DNA of 64,000 bases, from sequence record NC_100372.1; one strand, written 5' to 3'. This DNA is from a phage. Below are positions 33,574-46,110 of this stretch, one piece after another (within the stretch, counting starts at the first letter, position 1; every line of letters starts with the position of its first letter). Both the position numbers and the translations under genes were made by a program. The notes beneath the pieces were generated by a model, which searched no databases, was not told where the DNA came from, and saw only the letters and a list, made by a program, of their open reading frames with translations.

Positions 33574-33713
33574 CACACAAGTCTGCTTTGCAGGTTTAGC
33601 TGCTCAGCTAAGGTTCTGGAGTCACCTATAACATCTTCCAACTAAATTTCCTACCAACACAGTTACTTACCCACCACACATGACTGTTTGCTTGTTTAGT
33701 GAGCAGTCATCCC

Positions 33714-33741
33714 TTGACATTCTTGCCTATCTTGATAAAAT
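33714..33741 (+). promoter_or_regulatory. sigma70-type promoter firing into ORF-free DNA
   Basis: TTGACA(33714-33719), 16 nt spacer, TAAAAT(33736-33741). No ORF with an SD downstream. Confidence 0.5.
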
Positions 33742-33936
33742 TAAGTTCTTCTCTTTTCTTTTACCGAGTAATTCGGGTTTTCTGTTCTCTTCGGTTTGAA
33801 GGGGTATGGAGATACACCTGAGTGAACAGGGTGAACAACCGAACCTTTAGCTATGGCATTAGCATGGCGAAGCGGACGGGTGACGAAAGAGGGGCCGGAG
33901 GACACCAGTCACTGCCATATAGTATATGGGTGATAA

Positions 33937-34476
33937 CCTGAAGAGTCTGAATAAGTGTTTAAGTACCAGTCAGAGGAAAAGGTGAATGGTAGCCGAAGGG
34001 GGAGGGGGGTTTCTTATATCTTTAATTTGTATACTTTATATACACTTGTAAACCAATTCAATTAGGATCTGTTTACCACACAAAGTGGATGGAGACAAAT
34101 ATCACCTATTAAACTTGAATTATTTATAGAAAATACCACAACACCGCTTAAGTCTTTGATTTTACACACAAATCTTACAAATATCCTACCTCCATATTTA
34201 ACATACTTGTAACATATTCCATATCCTACCTGCCTGATCAATTTACTCCCACCACATTCCCACATTTTCCCTGTCTGTACTACCCCACCCCCGCCGGGAG
34301 TCCCGTCATATCTGGCTTTCCAGCAAATATCACACCCACAAATATCATCACCTGAAGAGGGTTTCATCCCATAATACCTGCCTTACCTGAAGAGCGCTTC
34401 ATACACCACCTAAATTTTTTAATTGACCCCTCCCCGCCGCCGGAGAGGTTGGCTTTTCCCACACAGGCCTGAAGAG
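33937..34476 (+). repeat. CCTGAAGAG 9-mer, 4 direct copies
   Basis: Copies at 33937-33945, 34351-34359, 34386-34394 and 34468-34476. Confidence 0.8.
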
Positions 34477-34706
34477 TCAGCCAGAAATATCTGAACAGGT
34501 CCAGTTATGCCCCGATTTTGTGCTTGTCCTACAGGAGTGCTGCCCTGTCAGGAGCCGGTAGCGACTGGAGTGCTGCCAGGCGGACGGAATGGGAATACTT
34601 CTCATTTTTATAATAATTCTCAAATATCGAGGCAGTGAGGCAAATTAATAGGCCAGGCCGTTCACACAGTGGCACAACATTTGCAATCTATCTTGTGGGA
34701 GTGAAT

Positions 34707-34740
34707 GAGAATACCTATCATTGTGAGAATGGTTATCATT
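34707..34740. promoter_or_regulatory. Two adjacent Fur-box-like sites (GAGAATNNNTATCATT)
   Basis: GAGAATACCTATCATT (34707-34722) and GAGAATGGTTATCATT (34725-34740). The second matches 13/19 of GATAATGATAATCATTATC. Confidence 0.4.
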
Positions 34741-35038
34741 ACGGGCAATTTAACATAATACCTATTATGCGCACCACTGGCGATACATACAGGGATTGAT
34801 AACATGGGTTACTGTTTACGCACATAACAATTATATTTATTACTATTTGTGTGGGATATAGTTAGCAACCAATAGATTAGATATTGACCTGCAGACTTCT
34901 GACCGTCCAGACGTCTAAACGCCCACACAACAAGGATTATACATACATTCCTGAATGTAAACAGGGCCGCAAAAAATGCTACCATACCAGTTTGTAAATT
35001 TTTCATGCAGCACTTGACAAAGAGGAGAAAAACTTGTC

Positions 35039-35100
35039 TGACACAATGTGACAAAATTGCCACTTTTGACACTTTTACCTTTGACACAATATGACACAAT
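35039..35100 (+). repeat. TGACACAAT iteron cluster (5 copies, 3 perfect)
   Basis: Perfect copies at 35039-35047, 35082-35090 and 35092-35100. Variants at 35049 (TGACAAAAT) and 35067 (TGACACTTT). Confidence 0.8.
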
Positions 35101-35193
35101 AACGGCTGTTACTATTCCATATCTCACTGTTTACGTATAGACTGTTTACGCCTGAATAGTTTACGCCCAAACTGTTTACACAGAGATGATAAG

Positions 35194-35432
35194 CCATGAC
35201 ATTCGTTTGCATGAAAACAATTAACAAGTTAATAATATATGACATAATATAAAAGCAGGGCAACTATTAGAAGATCTATAGTTGCCTTGCTTGTTATGTC
35301 ATGATTAACTAAATACAAGGCAACTATGATCTGAATAATAGATTGCAGAAAAACTATCACGGGGGTGATTGTTACTGCTTTTATATTATGTCGCGACTCC
35401 GTCGCGCCATGCCATTCGTTTGCATAGTTGCC
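35194..35432. repeat. Nested direct-repeat / inverted-repeat / palindrome structure
   Basis: 19-nt DR CCATGaCATTCGTTTGCAT (35194-35212 and 35407-35425, 1 mismatch). 18-bp perfect IR GACATAATATAAAAGCAG (35241-35258) / CTGCTTTTATATTATGTC (35375-35392). GGCAACTAT/ATAGTTGCC at 35259, 35278, 35319 and 35424. Confidence 0.85.
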
Positions 35433-36040
35433 TTATTGTTACAGGTAAAACAATTACATTATTAATTATTTCTTATCTTTCTCTTAGTCATCTAATGATT
35501 CCAGTCAGTATAGTAATGTACAGTAAACATTAGACGACTAAAGATTTCTCTGTGTATAATAACTTATCGTGACAATTTCGAACTGTTTACGAAAAATGTT
35601 GACACCTGAGCTGATTTATGTTATGCAGTTTACACGAATAATTATTTTATGCAGGTATTGACTATTCCGTTATTCTGTGGTTGGAATAAATACTTTGCAG
35701 ACTATAGAATGGCGTGCGTACGTGAATTCTGAGATCTGGCGGCTATAGTTATACTCGATTTTTCGCGTAGAACACGCTTTCGATGCTGTGTAAGTGTATG
35801 ACTTATAAAGATTTTTAGTTGTTGACAAGATATTGGAGATGTGCATCAGGTTAAAATTTGTGCAATAGCGGCATTACGTGCACTTTTGGGAGAGAAAACG
35901 GGTAAAAATGGCCCTGCTACCACACAATGAAAGATTATGCAATGGTTATTTTCCATGTATATTTGTACAGTATGTGGGATTGATGGCTAGTCAATTATTC
36001 CACTTGCCAGGTAGGGCCGTTTATGGTAGGAGAAGAGCAG

Positions 36041-36069
36041 ACAAAAAGAAAGGGGCCTTTAAGCCCCTT
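36041..36069 (-). terminator. Rho-independent terminator ending the - strand arm
   Basis: On the - strand: AAGGGGC-TTAAAG-GCCCCTT followed by TCTTTTTGT. Confidence 0.8.
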
Positions 36070-36087
36070 GATAATTCAGTTAAGAAA

Positions 36088-36507
36088 TTATAATGATTCG
36101 TATATTTCAAAAATCCGATTTGCCAGGTCGTTACGGTAGCGGAATTTTTCATCGCGCTTGATCATTAAATCCTTATAGCCGTACTCTTTAAGCACTTCAT
36201 TAACTTTATAGCGGCATACCTGCATATTATCTTGAGCGTCACCAATAAACTTGTTGCTGTGGTGCATTGCTTTAATTTCTTCTTCCAGGACCAGGGCAAC
36301 TACCCGGACCGGATCAAGCTGGTAGGCGGTAACATCTATGCGGCATTGTAGACGGCTTTTAACGTCTGCCACCGGATATACTGCAACCTCTTCCCCGTCA
36401 ACATTGACAATAATTAGTTTACCATCGATTTCGAATCCTTTCGCCGCCGGACCGTGACAAAAAGCGTTATCAAAGCTATATGCCGGATTATCAGATTTAA
36501 TGTTCAT
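36088..36507 (-). CDS. Hypothetical protein
   Basis: AGAGG SD. Own promoter at 36557-36585. Confidence 0.65.
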   Translation of the reverse strand: MNIKSDNPAYSFDNAFCHGPAAKGFEIDGKLIIVNVDGEEVAVYPVADVKSRLQCRIDVTAYQLDPVRVVALVLEEEIKAMHHSNKFIGDAQDNMQVCRYKVNEVLKEYGYKDLMIKRDEKFRYRNDLANRIFEIYESL

Positions 36508-36556
36508 GGTGTTTTTACCTCTTAGTTAATTTTCTTACAACTTCCCTTCAAAAAAG

Positions 36557-36585
36557 AATATAGCAAAACTGCCGATCCCTGTCAA
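36557..36585 (-). promoter_or_regulatory. sigma70-type promoter (-35 inside a palindrome)
   Basis: On the - strand: TTGACA(36585-36580), 17 nt spacer, TATATT(36562-36557). ATCCCT-TGTTGAC-AGGGAT palindrome brackets the -35. Confidence 0.7.
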
Positions 36586-36651
36586 CAAGGGATAGCATAA
36601 TTTTTATGTGATCAAGGGGCTTTATCGCCCCTGACCATGCAACCTGTTGTA

Positions 36652-36915
36652 TTATTTGTTGCTCATCCAGTTTTCCCAAGCTGCCTGATAATCTGCCTCA
36701 CTACGGCGGATCTCTTCTTGTTCTTCAAGCCGGATCTCTTCTTCCAGGTACCCCAAGATATCGGCTTTTTTGGTCTGGCGTAACATCCAATCGTCTTTTT
36801 TGCGAGTAAAGATCTTGTACGCTTTCTCGCAAACTTCTTTTTTGCTACCTTTTTGGACTTCAAGAATTCTGTAAGCCATGTACTGAACTAGTTTGAGCTG
36901 GTCAAGACGTTTCAT
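36652..36915 (-). CDS. Hypothetical protein
   Basis: AAGAGGAAA SD. The overlapping track ORF 36663..36863 is rejected. Confidence 0.65.
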   Translation of the reverse strand: MKRLDQLKLVQYMAYRILEVQKGSKKEVCEKAYKIFTRKKDDWMLRQTKKADILGYLEEEIRLEEQEEIRRSEADYQAAWENWMSNK

Positions 36916-36971
36916 GATGTTTTCCTCTTTATGTGGTTCGTTTCGATTAGTTGATAATATAGCATGAATTG

Positions 36972-37190
36972 CTATTTACTCACAACAATATCGAAAACAA
37001 ATTTTTCTTTGTTGTCAAAACTCACGTATCCGATTCGACCACGCAATCCCCGAGTAGTGCCGTATTCGTAACCATCAAGGCCTTTAACCTTCCAATCCGT
37101 ACCCATTAAAACCGCATTATATTTCTGACCAACTACAAAAGCGCTACCAGTTGATTCAATGCAAACAACTTTAATTTTACGGGTTGCCAT
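36972..37190 (-). CDS. Hypothetical protein
   Basis: AGAGAGAAAG upstream. No motif recognised. Confidence 0.6.
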   Translation of the reverse strand: MATRKIKVVCIESTGSAFVVGQKYNAVLMGTDWKVKGLDGYEYGTTRGLRGRIGYVSFDNKEKFVFDIVVSK

Positions 37191-37252
37191 TTTCTTTCTC
37201 TCTTTTTGTGCGGTTCTGATTAGTGGGCCTTTTGGCCCGTGTCATTATCTTA

Positions 37253-45121: not shown

Positions 45122-45281
45122 TTTTGTACCTCCTCTTCAATTGTTACCTGCCCTGTAGCATAGGCCTACCAGGTTTGCAAGCTTTCACTCTCTCCTACCT
45201 GGTCAGTCAGGTCCTGCCAGGCTGGCCCCGCCAGGTTGCAGCGGTTGGTGTATTATGTTAGAAAAAATTTTTGAAGAAGTG

Positions 45282-45312
45282 TTGACAGCGGCCCCGCCAG
45301 GTGGCACAATAT
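45282..45312 (+). promoter_or_regulatory. Candidate + strand promoter upstream of hairpin element A
   Basis: TTGACA(45282-45287) then CACAAT/CAATAT at 17-19 nt. Antisense to all neighbouring genes. Confidence 0.4.
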
Positions 45313-45327
45313 ACCTATCGAAAGGAC

Positions 45328-45374
45328 GGCAGGCACCGGTGACGGGGGAGACAACCACCGGGGATGGGCGCTGC
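45328..45374 (+). repeat. GC-rich hairpin element, copy A (candidate ncRNA)
   Basis: GGCAGGCACCGGTGACGGGGGAGACAACCACCGGGGATGGGCGCTGC. Inner stem CCGGUG/CACCGG. Followed by the Fur-box-like GAGAACGGTTATCATTATC (45382-45400). Confidence 0.65.
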
Positions 45375-45461
45375 ATAAAATGAGAACGGTTATCATTATC
45401 ATTTAAAAATTTATGCAAAAAATCCTTGCTTTCTTTGTCCTGTGTGATACTATAATAACAA

Positions 45462-45504
45462 GCCGGGGCAACAGGGGCCGGGAGACAATCACCGGGGGTG
45501 CCCG
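45462..45504 (+). repeat. GC-rich hairpin element, copy B (candidate ncRNA)
   Basis: GCCGGGGCAACAGGGGCCGGGAGACAATCACCGGGGGTGCCCG. Starts 6 nt after a consensus TATAAT (45451-45456). Followed by the Fur-box-like GAGAATGATTATCATT (45518-45533). Confidence 0.65.
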
Positions 45505-45639
45505 TTATTCTGCAAACGAGAATGATTATCATTCAAAATTCTAAATGAGAACTTTTCGCATTTCATAAATTTAGTTAGCATGCTAATTACCTACCGTGAC
45601 AATTCTATATAAAATAATACCTCCTTAAATATTTCCATA

Positions 45640-46110
45640 TACAAATTTTAAAAATCCATTTCCGAAAACGAAAAATCGATTTCGTCCCCAAAAATTTCAG
45701 GTCGAGCTCCGGAACGATTTCCAGAAAATCTGATTCAGAAAACGAAAAACAGATCGAGTACTAAGAAATTTATCGAGAAAAATTTTCAGAAAATTCAATC
45801 TTTGAAACGAAAAACAGATCGAGTACTGAGAGAGATGTATCAAAACCTGCTGAGAATAATGGGTTTATTGTTATAAAGGGTCAAAGGTAAGCTGGGAAAG
45901 TTCCGGTAGAAGGGTGAGAGTATGTGCGGAAAATCTGGAATAGTAACTTAAAGTACGGTGCGAACGATAGAATGAGCAGCACATCTTATCGCGCCTGTCT
46001 TGAAAAATCCATTTTAGTTTTCGATCCATTTTCTGATTTTCTAAGAATTTTAAAATATCCGGCTAGGTAAAATATCAAAAGGAGGAAATCCATTTTAGAA
46101 ATCCTCCTTA
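45640..46110. repeat. AT-rich degenerate tandem repeats / iterons (origin-like)
   Basis: 22-nt perfect DR AACGAAAAACAGATCGAGTACT at 45741-45762 and 45806-45827, with a degenerate copy at 45667. AAATCCATTTTAG at 46005 and 46086, with variants at 45652 and 46023. Confidence 0.75.
46071..46109 (-). terminator. Rho-independent terminator
   Basis: On the - strand: AAGGAGGA-(15 nt loop)-TCCTCCTT followed by TTGATATTTT. Confidence 0.6.

What the first reader, a model, noticed from the sequence alone, without database searches (positions are those of the whole stretch)
33574..36087. 2.5 kb ORF-free island at the convergence point of the two gene arms, saturated with several independent repeat systems
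Coding density elsewhere is above 90 percent, yet this 2.5 kb stretch has no ORF with an SD or plausible composition.

It contains at least five unrelated repeat classes, detailed in separate findings:
- CCTGAAGAG x4
- CTGTTTACG x7
- TGACACAAT x5
- a DR/IR/palindrome nest
- Fur-box-like pairs

Other repeats in the island include GGAGTGCTGCC x2 (34543-34553 and 34567-34577) and the palindrome CCATATA-G-TATATGG (33914-33928).

Its position is between the last + gene (ends 33573) and the terminator of the last - gene (36041-36069). That position, and its motif sharing with the second island at 45.1-46.1 kb, suggest a cis-acting hub. Options are a replication origin, packaging or terminus signals, an injection-pause region like the repeat-rich ORF-free region known in T5-type phages, or a cluster of ncRNA genes. 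I cannot tell which from sequence alone.
Basis: partly seen in the sequence, partly recalled or inferred. Interest (0 to 1): 0.72.

Follow-up and report, generated by a model that had tools for sequence, protein, structure and literature searches.

The report
Terminal-repeat region of an rV5-like phage
This gene-free stretch is where the linear chromosome of an rV5-like E. coli phage begins and ends: it holds a 460-bp terminal repeat and flanking end-processing signals, an expected kind of region, plus two strongly conserved elements that I did not find described.

Summary
Window 33574-36087 has no conserved ORF, sits where the + and - gene arms converge, and carries the listed repeats (two coordinates are slightly off).

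The window is a Vequintavirus (rV5-like myovirus). The rV5 paper already draws this stretch as "non-coding".

The main result is that the virion DNA ends lie inside the island.
- Window 34579-35038 is homologous to the exact 459-bp direct terminal repeat (DTR) at both ends of the EdH4 record.
- Several deposited genomes start or stop at these two bases.
- DTRs of 458/459 bp are published for this genus, and 514 bp for Klebsiella phage KPP-1.
- A 27-nt DTR core and both boundary motifs recur in 21 IMG/VR loci from about 10 lineages beyond Vequintavirus (genus labels partly inferred).

The repeat arrays abut the DTR boundaries and vary in copy number between close relatives.

Two blocks are more conserved than the neighbouring genes:
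- a consensus sigma-70 promoter driving a ~264-nt non-coding unit (33748-34011, genus-specific, no Rfam match);
- a palindrome nest whose 16-22-nt perfect inverted repeat co-varies across 10 lineages.

Replication-origin and T5-type injection-stop readings are not supported. This is a known kind of region with undescribed parts.

The parts
33714..33741 (+). Near-consensus sigma-70 promoter (TTGACA, 16-nt spacer, TAAAAT) with an extended -10 TG.
   Evidence: Promoter scan scores 11/12 with TG. Both hexamers are unchanged in 26 of 27 sequences (CM1 has one substitution in the -35 hexamer). In the L007/L030 lineage the spacer has 6 substitutions plus a 2-nt insertion, and the discriminator has 3 substitutions.
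33748..34011 (+). Candidate non-coding RNA gene of ~264 nt. It has a 5' polypyrimidine tract and ends in GAAG-G5AG6-UUUCUU. It is specific to the genus Vequintavirus.
   Evidence: Nucleotide diversity (pi) is 0.002-0.03, against 0.02-0.10 in the flanking genes. Conservation starts at the predicted transcription start and stops after the G tract. Substitutions are non-synonymous in every frame. No Rfam match and no match in E. coli genomes. Absent from the KPP-1, A73 and all non-Vequintavirus loci. Fold z-score is -1.76 and there are 0 compensatory pairs.
34012..34065 (.). AT-rich stretch directly after the conserved unit, variable in sequence.
   Evidence: Sequence; pi 0.125.
34134..34293 (+). 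C-rich, G-poor tract that looks like a Rho-utilisation (rut) site. It contains a 40-nt tandem pair and the C4AC5 tract.
   Evidence: C 0.28-0.42 and G 0.05-0.06 in 80-nt windows. The equivalent stretch left of the DTR in KPP-1 and A73 is also C>G (C/G about 1.5). C or G runs recur left of, or at the left edge of, the DTR in most lineages.
34351..34476 (+). Three of the four CCTGAAGAG copies. The last one, CCTGAAGAGTCAGCC, has counterparts in KPP-1 and A73.
34531..34578 (+). 33-nt tandem duplication carrying GGAGTGCTGCC. The proximal copy plus an A forms the invariant outer context of the left DTR boundary.
   Evidence: The duplication is absent or replaced in many relatives, while ...GGAG[TC]GCTGC[CT][AT]^GG is nearly invariant (18 of 20 genomes). 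pi is 0.42 at 34524-34573.
34579..35038 (.). Direct terminal repeat (DTR), present once here as in a concatemer junction or a collapsed assembly. The left end starts GGCGGACGG and the right end finishes ...CTTGACAAAGAGGAGAAAAACTTGTC.
   Evidence: The first 459 nt of the EdH4 record equal its last 459 nt exactly, and they map here. Four records start at 34579 and two break at 35038. The segment is 457-460 bp in 20 genomes. Published DTR lengths are 458/459 bp (PMC6563267, PMC7471380).
34705..34743 (+). Two adjacent Fur-box-like sites inside the DTR.
   Evidence: 13/19 and 15/19 matches to GATAATGATAATCATTATC. The same motif occurs in the second island and in KPP-1.
34748..34774 (+). 27-nt DTR core ATTTAACATAAWAC-N3-TTATRCGCAC, found well beyond Vequintavirus in Vequintavirinae-sized contigs.
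   Evidence: The exact pattern hits 21 IMG/VR loci. It also matches KPP-1 and A73. It lies at a fixed distance from the left-end motif GNCGGAC.
35039..35100 (+). Array of TGACAYAAT-type units with a period of about 10 bp, starting at the first base after the DTR. Candidate recognition array for the packaging or end-processing machinery.
   Evidence: Copy number and unit sequence differ among the 20 genomes. pi is 0.24-0.51.
35126..35181 (+). Four (A/C)TGTTTAC iterons at exactly 15-bp spacing.
   Evidence: Number and spacers vary among relatives.
35193..35445 (.). Ultra-conserved palindrome nest. It contains a perfect 18-nt inverted repeat (35241-35258 / 35375-35392), four AAGGCAACTAT copies in alternating orientation, the direct repeat GCCATGNCATTCGTTTGCAT, and a small hairpin GCGAC-TCC-GTCGC (35393-35405) followed by GCCA.
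   Evidence: pi is 0.002-0.03 at 35274-35423. Fold z-scores are -7.7 (+ strand) and -7.2 (- strand). Homologous perfect 16-22-nt repeats occur in 10 lineages: 100% Watson-Crick, 14 of 16 pairs changed on both sides, no G-T pairs.
35446..36040 (.). AT-rich spacer (GC about 0.36) with weak promoter-like sites on both strands. Moderately conserved.
36050..36069 (-). Intrinsic terminator of the - arm.
   Evidence: Also annotated as a terminator in Alma, Murica and EdH4.

Best explanation
The island is the chromosome-end region of a Vequintavirus. In replicating DNA this is the concatemer junction.

Shown.
- The packaged linear genome starts at window 34579 and ends at 35038. This 460-bp segment is carried at both ends as a direct terminal repeat (DTR).
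- The window shows it once, as in a concatemer or an assembly that collapsed the repeat.
- The two cut-site contexts, the DTR length and an internal DTR skeleton are conserved. The skeleton runs GNCGGAC, AAATATC, the 27-nt core, Fur-like boxes, then TTGACA-purine-run-TTGT.

Inferred, by analogy with T7-type DTR packaging.
- The terminase cuts at fixed sequences on either side of the single junction copy. The repeat is then duplicated by synthesis.
- The short-repeat arrays that begin at the boundaries (the GGAGTGCTGCC unit on the left, the TGACAYAAT and TGTTTAC arrays on the right) are recognition or architectural sites for this machinery. They evolve by expansion and contraction.
- The perfectly paired inverted repeat about 200 bp inside the left end acts at the DNA level, either as a hairpin in single-stranded replication or processing intermediates, or as paired protein sites.

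Transcription is kept off the ends. The - arm stops at an intrinsic terminator. The + side carries a C-rich, G-poor Rho-type tract.

Vequintavirus has also inserted a strong host-type promoter driving a ~264-nt conserved non-coding transcript between the + arm and this tract.
For: Termini.
- The EdH4 record carries an exact 459-bp repeat at both ends, and it maps to 34579-35038.
- EdH4, ECP2309, bov11CS3 and bov25_3 start at 34579. Aya and YN3 break at 35038.
- In CM1 the second DTR copy starts exactly at GCGGACGG.
- Published DTRs: 458 bp for EdH4/HdK5 (PMC6563267), 459 bp for Gotham with 'same specific start sequence' (PMC7471380), and 514 bp of T7 type by PhageTerm for KPP-1 (PMC9862379).

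Conservation.
- The DTR segment is 457-460 bp and the boundary contexts are invariant or nearly so in 20 genomes.
- The KPP-1 DTR also sits in a gene-poor island between convergent arms.
- Its right end is significantly similar to the window's (z=5.1, 0 of 300 shuffles).
- IMG/VR contig 2974564184 has an exact 519-bp terminal repeat. It starts GACGGAC and ends ...TTGACAGGAAGATAGAAAAGTGTT.
- The 27-nt core occurs in 21 loci from Vequintavirinae-sized contigs, with GNCGGAC at a fixed offset.

Arrays and inverted repeat.
- The hypervariable stretches lie exactly outside both boundaries.
- Covariation of the inverted repeat is shown.

General T7-type mechanism: one repeat copy per junction, the second copy synthesised, and collapse of the repeat in assemblies (PMC10438801).
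Against: - No reads are available for this particular phage, so its ends are inferred from homologues.
- One report infers headful packaging for a Vequintavirus from PhageTerm (PMC13211470).
- No protein-DNA or cleavage data exist for any of the arrays.
- The TGACAYAAT and TGTTTAC arrays are not present in KPP-1 or A73, so they are not universal parts of the system.
- The role of the inverted repeat is unknown. The arms were picked as perfect repeats, which biases the pair statistics.
- The RNA unit has no covariation support and only a weak fold z-score.
Confidence: 0.8

Rival explanations
1. The island is, or also contains, the replication origin. In one version a strong promoter makes a transcript whose G5AG6 tract, next to an AT-rich stretch, forms a persistent RNA-DNA hybrid that primes leading-strand synthesis, in the manner of ColE1 RNA II or mitochondrial CSB II. 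In the other version the 15-bp iterons bind an initiator.
For: - Promoter, then a conserved transcribed unit, then a G tract, then an AT-rich stretch.
- Four iterons at regular 15-bp spacing.
- The cumulative GC-skew maximum falls here.
- The CSB II principle is documented (PMC3488243).
- The phage encodes a PolA-type polymerase and a T7 gp4-like primase-helicase (PMC3606486).
Against: - The skew switch coincides with the change in transcription direction, as the rV5 authors noted.
- Only one weak DnaA-box match lies in the island.
- The iterons differ in number and spacer between close relatives.
- The RNA unit is missing from the homologous islands of other genera.
- The resemblance of the G tract to CSB II is recalled from memory, not tested.
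Confidence: 0.2
2. The main content is a set of non-coding RNA genes: the 264-nt unit, and possibly a second structured RNA over the palindrome nest. They would act in trans on host or phage functions, and their position at the ends would be incidental.
For: - Near-consensus promoter with conserved hexamers and a variable spacer; conservation begins at the predicted transcription start.
- Stronger conservation than the neighbouring genes, with no coding signature.
- The nest folds far better than shuffled sequence.
Against: - No Rfam family matches.
- No compensatory changes in the 264-nt unit.
- The nest folds equally well on both strands, and its conserved stem has no G-U pairs in 160 cells. 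This points to DNA-level rather than RNA-level pairing.
- No expression data were found.
Confidence: 0.3
3. It is a T5-type injection-stop (first-step-transfer) region, where DNA entry pauses until early proteins are made.
For: The region is repeat- and palindrome-rich, ORF-free and next to a genome end. Arms of small genes flank it.
Against: - The terminal repeat is 460 bp and gene-free, not a ~10-kb repeat carrying pre-early genes.
- Both flanking arms are transcribed towards the ends, so no genes lie between an end and the putative stop.
- There is no DnaA-box cluster.
- No two-step transfer is reported for this group in the papers searched.
Confidence: 0.05
4. It is non-functional spacer, or it holds unannotated small protein genes.
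For: Some records annotate short hypothetical proteins here. Parts of the island are hypervariable.
Against: - Two blocks are more conserved than the flanking genes.
- The ORFs are not maintained across relatives.
- The DTR skeleton and the inverted repeat recur across about 10 lineages.
Confidence: 0.04

Closest known systems
Concatemer junction and terminal repeat of T7/T3-type phages (short DTR, sequence-specific cutting, repeat duplicated by synthesis)
   Same: - A short exact direct repeat at both genome ends with fixed end sequences.
- One copy per junction.
- The region is non-coding.
- Arrays of short repeats abut the repeat. This T7 feature (SRL/SRR arrays) is recalled from memory.
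- PhageTerm classed the KPP-1 relative as T7-type (PMC9862379).
   Different: - The phage is a 137-kb myovirus that uses host RNA polymerase.
- The repeat is 460 bp.
- The ends lie between two convergent gene arms rather than ahead of a single co-directional gene set.
- The signals share no sequence with T7.
- None of the T7 elements (pacB, the RNA-polymerase pause at the junction, the hairpin intermediate) has been shown here.
Published DTRs of Vequintavirinae (EdH4/HdK5 458 bp, Gotham 459 bp, KPP-1 514 bp) and the 'non-coding' box in the rV5 genome map
   Same: This is the same element. The window's 34579-35038 is homologous to these repeats, and the island is the rV5 'non-coding' box.
   Different: The papers read here give only lengths or coordinates. 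None describes the conserved DTR skeleton, the boundary arrays, the co-varying inverted repeat or the promoter-driven conserved unit.
Phage T5 injection-stop region (repeat-rich ORF-free stretch in the long terminal repeat)
   Same: An ORF-free stretch dense in direct and inverted repeats, close to a chromosome end.
   Different: No long terminal repeat, no pre-early genes outside it and no DnaA-box cluster.
Transcript-primed origins (ColE1 RNA II; mitochondrial LSP-CSB II)
   Same: A strong promoter, a conserved transcribed leader, and a bipartite G run followed by U/T-rich, AT-rich sequence.
   Different: The element is genus-specific. No hybrid formation or initiation has been shown. The sequences downstream of the G run are C-rich in the RNA, which does not favour an extended hybrid.
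Lambda cos (cosN/cosB/cosQ, with host-factor sites)
   Same: A cut site flanked by arrays of short protein-binding repeats and possible host-factor sites (here Fur-like boxes).
   Different: The ends are direct repeats, not cohesive single strands. No sequence similarity.

Membership tests
T7-type short direct terminal repeat (DTR) chromosome end | The same sequence, in the same orientation, at both ends of the complete linear genome. | tested here: met
   EdH4 has an exact 459-bp repeat at both record ends, homologous to 34579-35038. A distant relative has an exact 519-bp repeat with the same boundary motifs. For the window's own phage this rests on homology.
T7-type short direct terminal repeat (DTR) chromosome end | Fixed, sequence-specific ends shared by independent isolates (no circular permutation). 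| tested here: met
   Six records start or stop at the same two positions. Boundary contexts are invariant or nearly so in 20 genomes. GNCGGAC sits at a fixed offset in several genera. One dissenting PhageTerm inference exists (PMC13211470).
T7-type short direct terminal repeat (DTR) chromosome end | Two-fold read coverage over the repeat and read-start pile-ups at both boundaries. | not testable with these tools
   No reads are available. Doubled coverage is reported for KPP-1 (PMC9862379); Gotham is reported only as having 459-bp terminal repeats and one specific start sequence (PMC7471380).
T7-type short direct terminal repeat (DTR) chromosome end | Terminase recognition and cleavage signals at the junction; the repeat is duplicated by synthesis. 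| not testable with these tools
   Only positional evidence: the arrays begin exactly at the boundaries.
T5-type injection-stop region | Lies within a ~10-kb terminal repeat that carries pre-early genes. | tested here: not met
   The repeat is 460 bp and gene-free.
T5-type injection-stop region | Cluster of DnaA boxes together with repeats and palindromes. | tested here: not met
   One one-mismatch DnaA box in the island. Repeats and palindromes are present.
Replication origin (iteron / DnaA-box / unwinding-element type) | Regularly spaced iterons. | tested here: inconclusive
   Four TGTTTAC units at 15-bp spacing, but number and spacers differ among close relatives.
Replication origin (iteron / DnaA-box / unwinding-element type) | DnaA boxes, or an adjacent initiator gene. 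| tested here: not met
   The flanking genes are small hypotheticals.
Replication origin (iteron / DnaA-box / unwinding-element type) | Mapped start of DNA synthesis. | not testable with these tools
   Needs marker-frequency data or 2D gels.
Any Rfam RNA family | Covariance-model score at or above the family's gathering threshold. | tested here: not met
   0 matches at gathering score over the whole window. Only chance-level hits at E up to 10 in the island, and none in 33748-34011.
Structured non-coding RNA gene (generic) | Own promoter, with conservation confined to the transcribed part. | tested here: met
Structured non-coding RNA gene (generic) | Compensatory base changes supporting a secondary structure. 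| tested here: inconclusive
   0 of 86 predicted pairs show double changes. Only about 15 variable sites exist in 27 sequences.
Structured non-coding RNA gene (generic) | A detectable discrete transcript. | not testable with these tools
   No transcriptome for this genus was found.
Fur-regulated operator | Close match to the 19-bp Fur box. | tested here: met
   15/19 at 34725, 16/19 at 45382 and 15/19 at 45518; these are the window's best sites together with 38052. Binding by Fur was not tested.
Rho-dependent terminator | A C-rich, G-poor stretch of 80 nt or more in the transcript. | tested here: met
   34134-34293 has C 0.28-0.42 and G 0.05-0.06. Dependence on Rho cannot be tested here.

The most novel reading that the evidence does not exclude
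Two undescribed elements could be working parts of a new way of handling DTR chromosome ends.

(1) The subfamily-wide inverted repeat. It is perfectly Watson-Crick, 16-22 nt long, sits about 200-300 bp inside the left end, is followed by a small GC hairpin, and co-varies in 14 of 16 pairs across 10 lineages. It could be a fold-back structure in single-stranded intermediates that primes or guides duplication of the terminal repeat.

(2) The Vequintavirus-specific 264-nt transcript. It has a consensus promoter and ends in GAAG-G5AG6-UUU, like the mitochondrial CSB II primer-forming site (resemblance recalled from memory). It could be a new class of phage RNA: a replication or junction-processing primer, or a trans-acting early RNA directed at the host.

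A further lead is that the TGACACAAT units are the complement of the T7-type primase site GTGTC. An array at the inner DTR boundary would place the last primers so that exactly the repeat is left single-stranded for concatemer annealing.
Probability: 0.2. Interest if true: 0.7.

Novelty: new member of a known kind. Interest (0 to 1): 0.42.

Why it matters
rV5-like phages are widely used as therapy and biocontrol candidates against pathogenic E. coli. Most of their roughly 120 deposited genomes are opened at arbitrary points, with the terminal repeat collapsed and this region left blank.

- Knowing that the true ends lie at 34579 and 35038, and that a 27-nt core plus two boundary motifs mark them in about 10 further lineages, gives a sequence-only way to orient and complete these genomes.
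- It also defines the minimal junction fragment for packaging and transduction assays or for engineering.
- The co-varying inverted repeat and the conserved promoter-driven RNA are concrete, testable candidates. They bear on how a large myovirus with short terminal repeats replicates and processes its ends, which has been studied in depth mainly for T7-type podoviruses.

Tried and rejected
- Rfam at gathering score and at E up to 10, and a tRNA/tmRNA scan: nothing relevant.
- Host origin of the 264-nt unit: no match in 5,426 complete E. coli genomes.
- Distant homologues of the unit:
  - A 25-mer scan of viral contigs and a 20-mer scan of metagenomes returned only Vequintavirus contigs plus two chance hits in high-GC coding DNA.
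  - nhmmer against KPP-1, A73/A5-4 and 19 other Vequintavirinae loci found nothing.
- Covariation in the unit: none. An apparent paired change in lineage L007 (33844 C>T, 33875 G>A) does not fall on a plausible helix.
- CCTGAAGAG as a genome-wide regulatory motif: rejected, because the copies outside the island are in-frame Pro-Glu-Glu codons.
- BLAST between the window's island and those of KPP-1 or A73: only one 28-37-nt hit. A pairwise alignment of the left boundary was not significant (z=0.5). The left-end motif was accepted only after it recurred at a fixed offset in many lineages and at a contig end.
- Broad motif sharing between the two islands: only the Fur-like box is significant.
- DnaA-box cluster: absent.
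- The inverted-repeat arms as tails of back-to-back terminators: this fits the window's T-rich arms but not KPP-1 or other genera, so it was dropped.
- TGACAYAAT as extended -10 promoters or as primase sites: kept only as leads, because the array is absent in other genera.
- Literature search for a transcriptome of this genus: none found.
- The I29 and CM1 records show extra duplications around the DTR. These were treated as probable assembly artefacts.
Full report
**Identity of the window.** The 2.5-kb query matches 121 phage records at 86-98% identity. All are Vequintavirus (rV5-like myoviruses of E. coli); the best matches are ECP26 and S127 BCL3. Nineteen hits are unverified records named 'Campylobacter phage'. 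The four that were opened or that carry a match in a short contig context are classified as Vequintavirus. In annotated relatives the island lies between the last gene of a + arm and the last gene of a - arm, both made of small hypothetical genes. The rV5 genome paper draws it as a grey box, 'non-coding ... contained no ORFs'. That paper expected, but did not find, a bidirectional terminator there (PMC3606486).

**Check of the observation.**
- The island has no maintained ORF. Of the nine mechanical ORFs of 54 aa or more, eight are intact in only 1-8 of 20 aligned genomes.
- The remaining ORF lies in a block with almost no substitutions, and the few that occur are nearly all non-synonymous in every frame.
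- The repeat classes are present at or near the stated coordinates, with small errors for two of them.
- CCTGAAGAG is over-represented in the whole window, but the copies outside the island are in-frame Pro-Glu-Glu codons.
- The only statistically supported motif shared with the 45.1-46.1 kb island is a Fur-box-like 16-18-mer.

**What the island is.**
- Several deposited genomes begin at query position 1006 (window 34579). Others break at query position 1465 (window 35038), which is 459 nt apart.
- Korf et al. report 'short terminal redundancies of 458 bp' for EdH4 and HdK5 (PMC6563267).
- I fetched both ends of the EdH4 record. Its first and last 459 nt are identical and align to window 34579-35038.
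- In a 20-genome alignment this segment is 457-460 bp everywhere. The contexts ...GGAG[TC]GCTGCCA^GGCGGACG... and ...AAAACTTGTC^TGACAY... are invariant or nearly so (18-19 of 20 genomes).

The window therefore shows the junction form, with one copy of the repeat. T7-type concatemers have this form, and short-read assemblies commonly produce it (PMC10438801).

**The architecture is older than the genus.**
- In Klebsiella phage KPP-1 (Mydovirus), the PhageTerm-defined 514-bp DTR lies in a ~1.8-kb gene-poor island at the convergence of the same two arms (PMC9862379).
- Overall DNA similarity to the window is below BLAST detection. The right end of the DTR still aligns significantly (z=5.1), and one internal block is shared.
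- That block, written as ATTTAACATAAWAC-N3-TTATRCGCAC, also matches phage A73. It returned 21 IMG/VR loci on contigs of 14.8-262 kb, 13 of them 120-153 kb.
That assignment is from memory.
- In many of these loci GNCGGAC sits 203-215 nt upstream of the core (169 nt in Vequintavirus).
- One complete contig starts exactly at GACGGAC and carries an exact 519-bp repeat at its other end. The repeat finishes ...TTGACAGGAAGATAGAAAAGTGTT^TAGCA.
- A 24-sequence alignment gives a conserved DTR skeleton: left-end motif, AAATATC, a TTGAC, the core, Fur-like boxes, and TTGACA-purine-run-TGT at the right end.

**Anatomy and conservation inside the island.**

Hypervariable, indel-rich stretches lie just outside the two DTR boundaries.
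- 34524-34573 (pi 0.42) holds a 33-nt unit carrying GGAGTGCTGCC. The unit is single, duplicated or replaced in different genomes.
- 35024-35173 (pi 0.24-0.51) holds the ~10-bp-period TGACAYAAT array and the 15-bp-period TGTTTAC iterons. Their number and spacers vary even between close relatives.
- These arrays are absent from KPP-1 and A73. Those phages have other short repeats in the same places, such as a 27-nt tandem unit left of the KPP-1 DTR and CCACAGAG units in A73.

Two blocks are more conserved than the flanking genes (pi 0.002-0.03 against 0.02-0.10).

**Block 1 (33674-34023).**
- It starts with a TTGACA-16-TAAAAT promoter with an extended -10.
- In the most divergent lineage the spacer and discriminator carry nine substitutions and a 2-nt insertion, while both hexamers stay unchanged. 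From the predicted start (about 33748) to the GAAG-G5AG6-TTTCTT at about 34011 the sequence is almost invariant.
- This pattern, and the absence of a coding signature, point to a conserved transcript.
- The transcript has no Rfam relative, no E. coli counterpart and no homologue outside the genus.
- Structural support is weak. The fold z-score is -1.76. No pair shows compensatory change, because there is almost no variation. The variable AG/GA lies at the centre of the CCATATA...TATATGG hairpin.
- Downstream come an AT-rich variable stretch and then a 160-nt C-rich, G-poor tract (C up to 0.42, G 0.05). The equivalent stretch in KPP-1 and A73 is also C>G.
- I read this tract as a Rho-type terminator that keeps + strand transcription out of the terminus. 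That is an inference.

**Block 2 (about 35193-35445).**
- It is a nest of palindromes that folds far better than shuffled sequence on both strands (z=-7.7 and -7.2). The KPP-1 counterpart behaves likewise (z=-8.0).
- Its outer element is a perfect 18-nt inverted repeat (35241-35258 / 35375-35392).
- A perfect 16-22-nt inverted repeat occurs at the same relative place in ten lineages. Each is followed by a small GC-rich hairpin with a three-base loop and GCC.
- On an ungapped alignment of the arms all 160 cells are Watson-Crick. Fourteen of 16 pairs show changes on both sides and none shows a G-T pair. No shuffle or slid control comes close.
- The arms were selected as perfect repeats, so the statistics are biased towards pairing.
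- Even so, the arm sequences differ between lineages, G-T is absent, and both strands fold equally well. Together these point to pairing at the DNA level (a hairpin in single-stranded intermediates) or to two copies of one protein site kept identical, rather than an RNA stem.

**Mechanism.**
- Shown: the ends, the repeat, their conservation, and the position of the arrays and the inverted repeat relative to them.
- Inferred from the T7-type model (PMC10438801, and my own knowledge of T7): cutting at both sides of the single junction copy, synthesis of the second copy, the arrays as recognition or architectural sites, and the inverted repeat as a processing or replication structure.

**Alternatives.**
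- A replication origin is not excluded but lacks its usual marks.
- The T5 injection-stop analogy fails on context.
- Junk or hidden genes are contradicted by the conservation pattern.

**Novelty.** The DTR and the 'non-coding' box are each published, but only as a length and a label. The papers I could search do not describe the conserved DTR skeleton, the boundary arrays, the co-varying inverted repeat or the promoter-driven unit. No transcriptome for the genus was found. The island is thus a member of a known kind, a DTR junction region, with parts that deserve experiments.

Noticed in passing
window 45130-46100: The second ORF-free island holds two tandem units on the + strand, antisense to the surrounding - arm. 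Each unit is a sigma-70-like promoter (TTGACA-17-CACAAT at about 45283; TTGCTT-17-TATAAT at about 45428), then a GC-rich hairpin (GGGAGACAAYCACCGGGG), then a near-consensus Fur box (45382 at 16/19, 45518 at 15/19). Tandem repeats of 65-74 bp follow at 45651-45831, along with four CC[CT]GCCAGG motifs.
   Followed up: partly
window 34705-34743, 38052, 45382, 45518; L023 5795-5815: The best matches to the E. coli Fur box in the 64 kb lie in the DTR and the second island. KPP-1 has a 16/19 site inside its palindrome nest. A host iron regulator, or a phage protein with similar specificity, may bind the chromosome ends.
   Followed up: partly
L015 (Shigella phage CM1) 2524-3110; L018 (phage I29) 2661-2721: The CM1 record carries the DTR twice, separated by a 65-bp spacer, and the second copy starts exactly at the left-end motif. 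I29 duplicates window-equivalent 34220-34795 with a short inverted piece. Both are probably assembly artefacts caused by the terminal repeat.
   Followed up: partly
window 36088-36623 and 36924-37223: The last - arm gene (139 aa, 36088-36507) is missing or replaced in about 20% of the aligned genomes (for example nomo, Alma, EdH4, APCEc02). A ~300-bp segment is absent from about 70%. The gene content next to the terminus is a variable cassette. The same 139-aa gene is 81% identical at the DNA level in phages A73 and A5-4, whose islands are otherwise unalignable.
   Followed up: no
whole window: Nine-mers within one mismatch of the DnaA box TTATCCACA occur 37 times against 19 expected (0 of 100 shuffles reach 37). 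They are spread over the coding arms and not concentrated in the island.
   Followed up: no
phage collection hits: Nineteen records named 'Campylobacter phage' (MG0656xx) match this region. The one opened (A147) is marked UNVERIFIED and classified as Vequintavirus, so these are probably mislabelled or contaminated. The 87-aa protein at 36652-36915 is annotated 'DNA translocase FtsK' in many records, without evident basis for so small a protein.
   Followed up: no
L020 (APCEc02) 2306-2440, equivalent to window ~34400-34535, - strand: A 44-aa ORF inside the island is annotated 'structural protein' in APCEc02. The ORF is not maintained in relatives.
   Followed up: partly
window 34283-34292, 34427-34435, 33998-34009; loci L033-L051: Bipartite C runs (C4-6 N1-2 C4-6) lie 90-150 nt left of the DTR in most lineages. 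In Certrevirus-like loci and A73, G runs lie at the DTR's left edge instead. This is a recurrent tract prone to quadruplex or i-motif formation near the left cut site.
   Followed up: partly
window 35039-35100 and 35241-35248, 35384-35392: TGACACAAT/TGACATAAT units are the reverse complement of the T7-type primase recognition sequence GTGTC. They also read as extended -10 elements (TGnCAYAAT). The outer ends of the conserved inverted-repeat arms carry the same GACAY/RTGTC in most genera, and TGGTC in Certrevirus-like loci.
   Followed up: no
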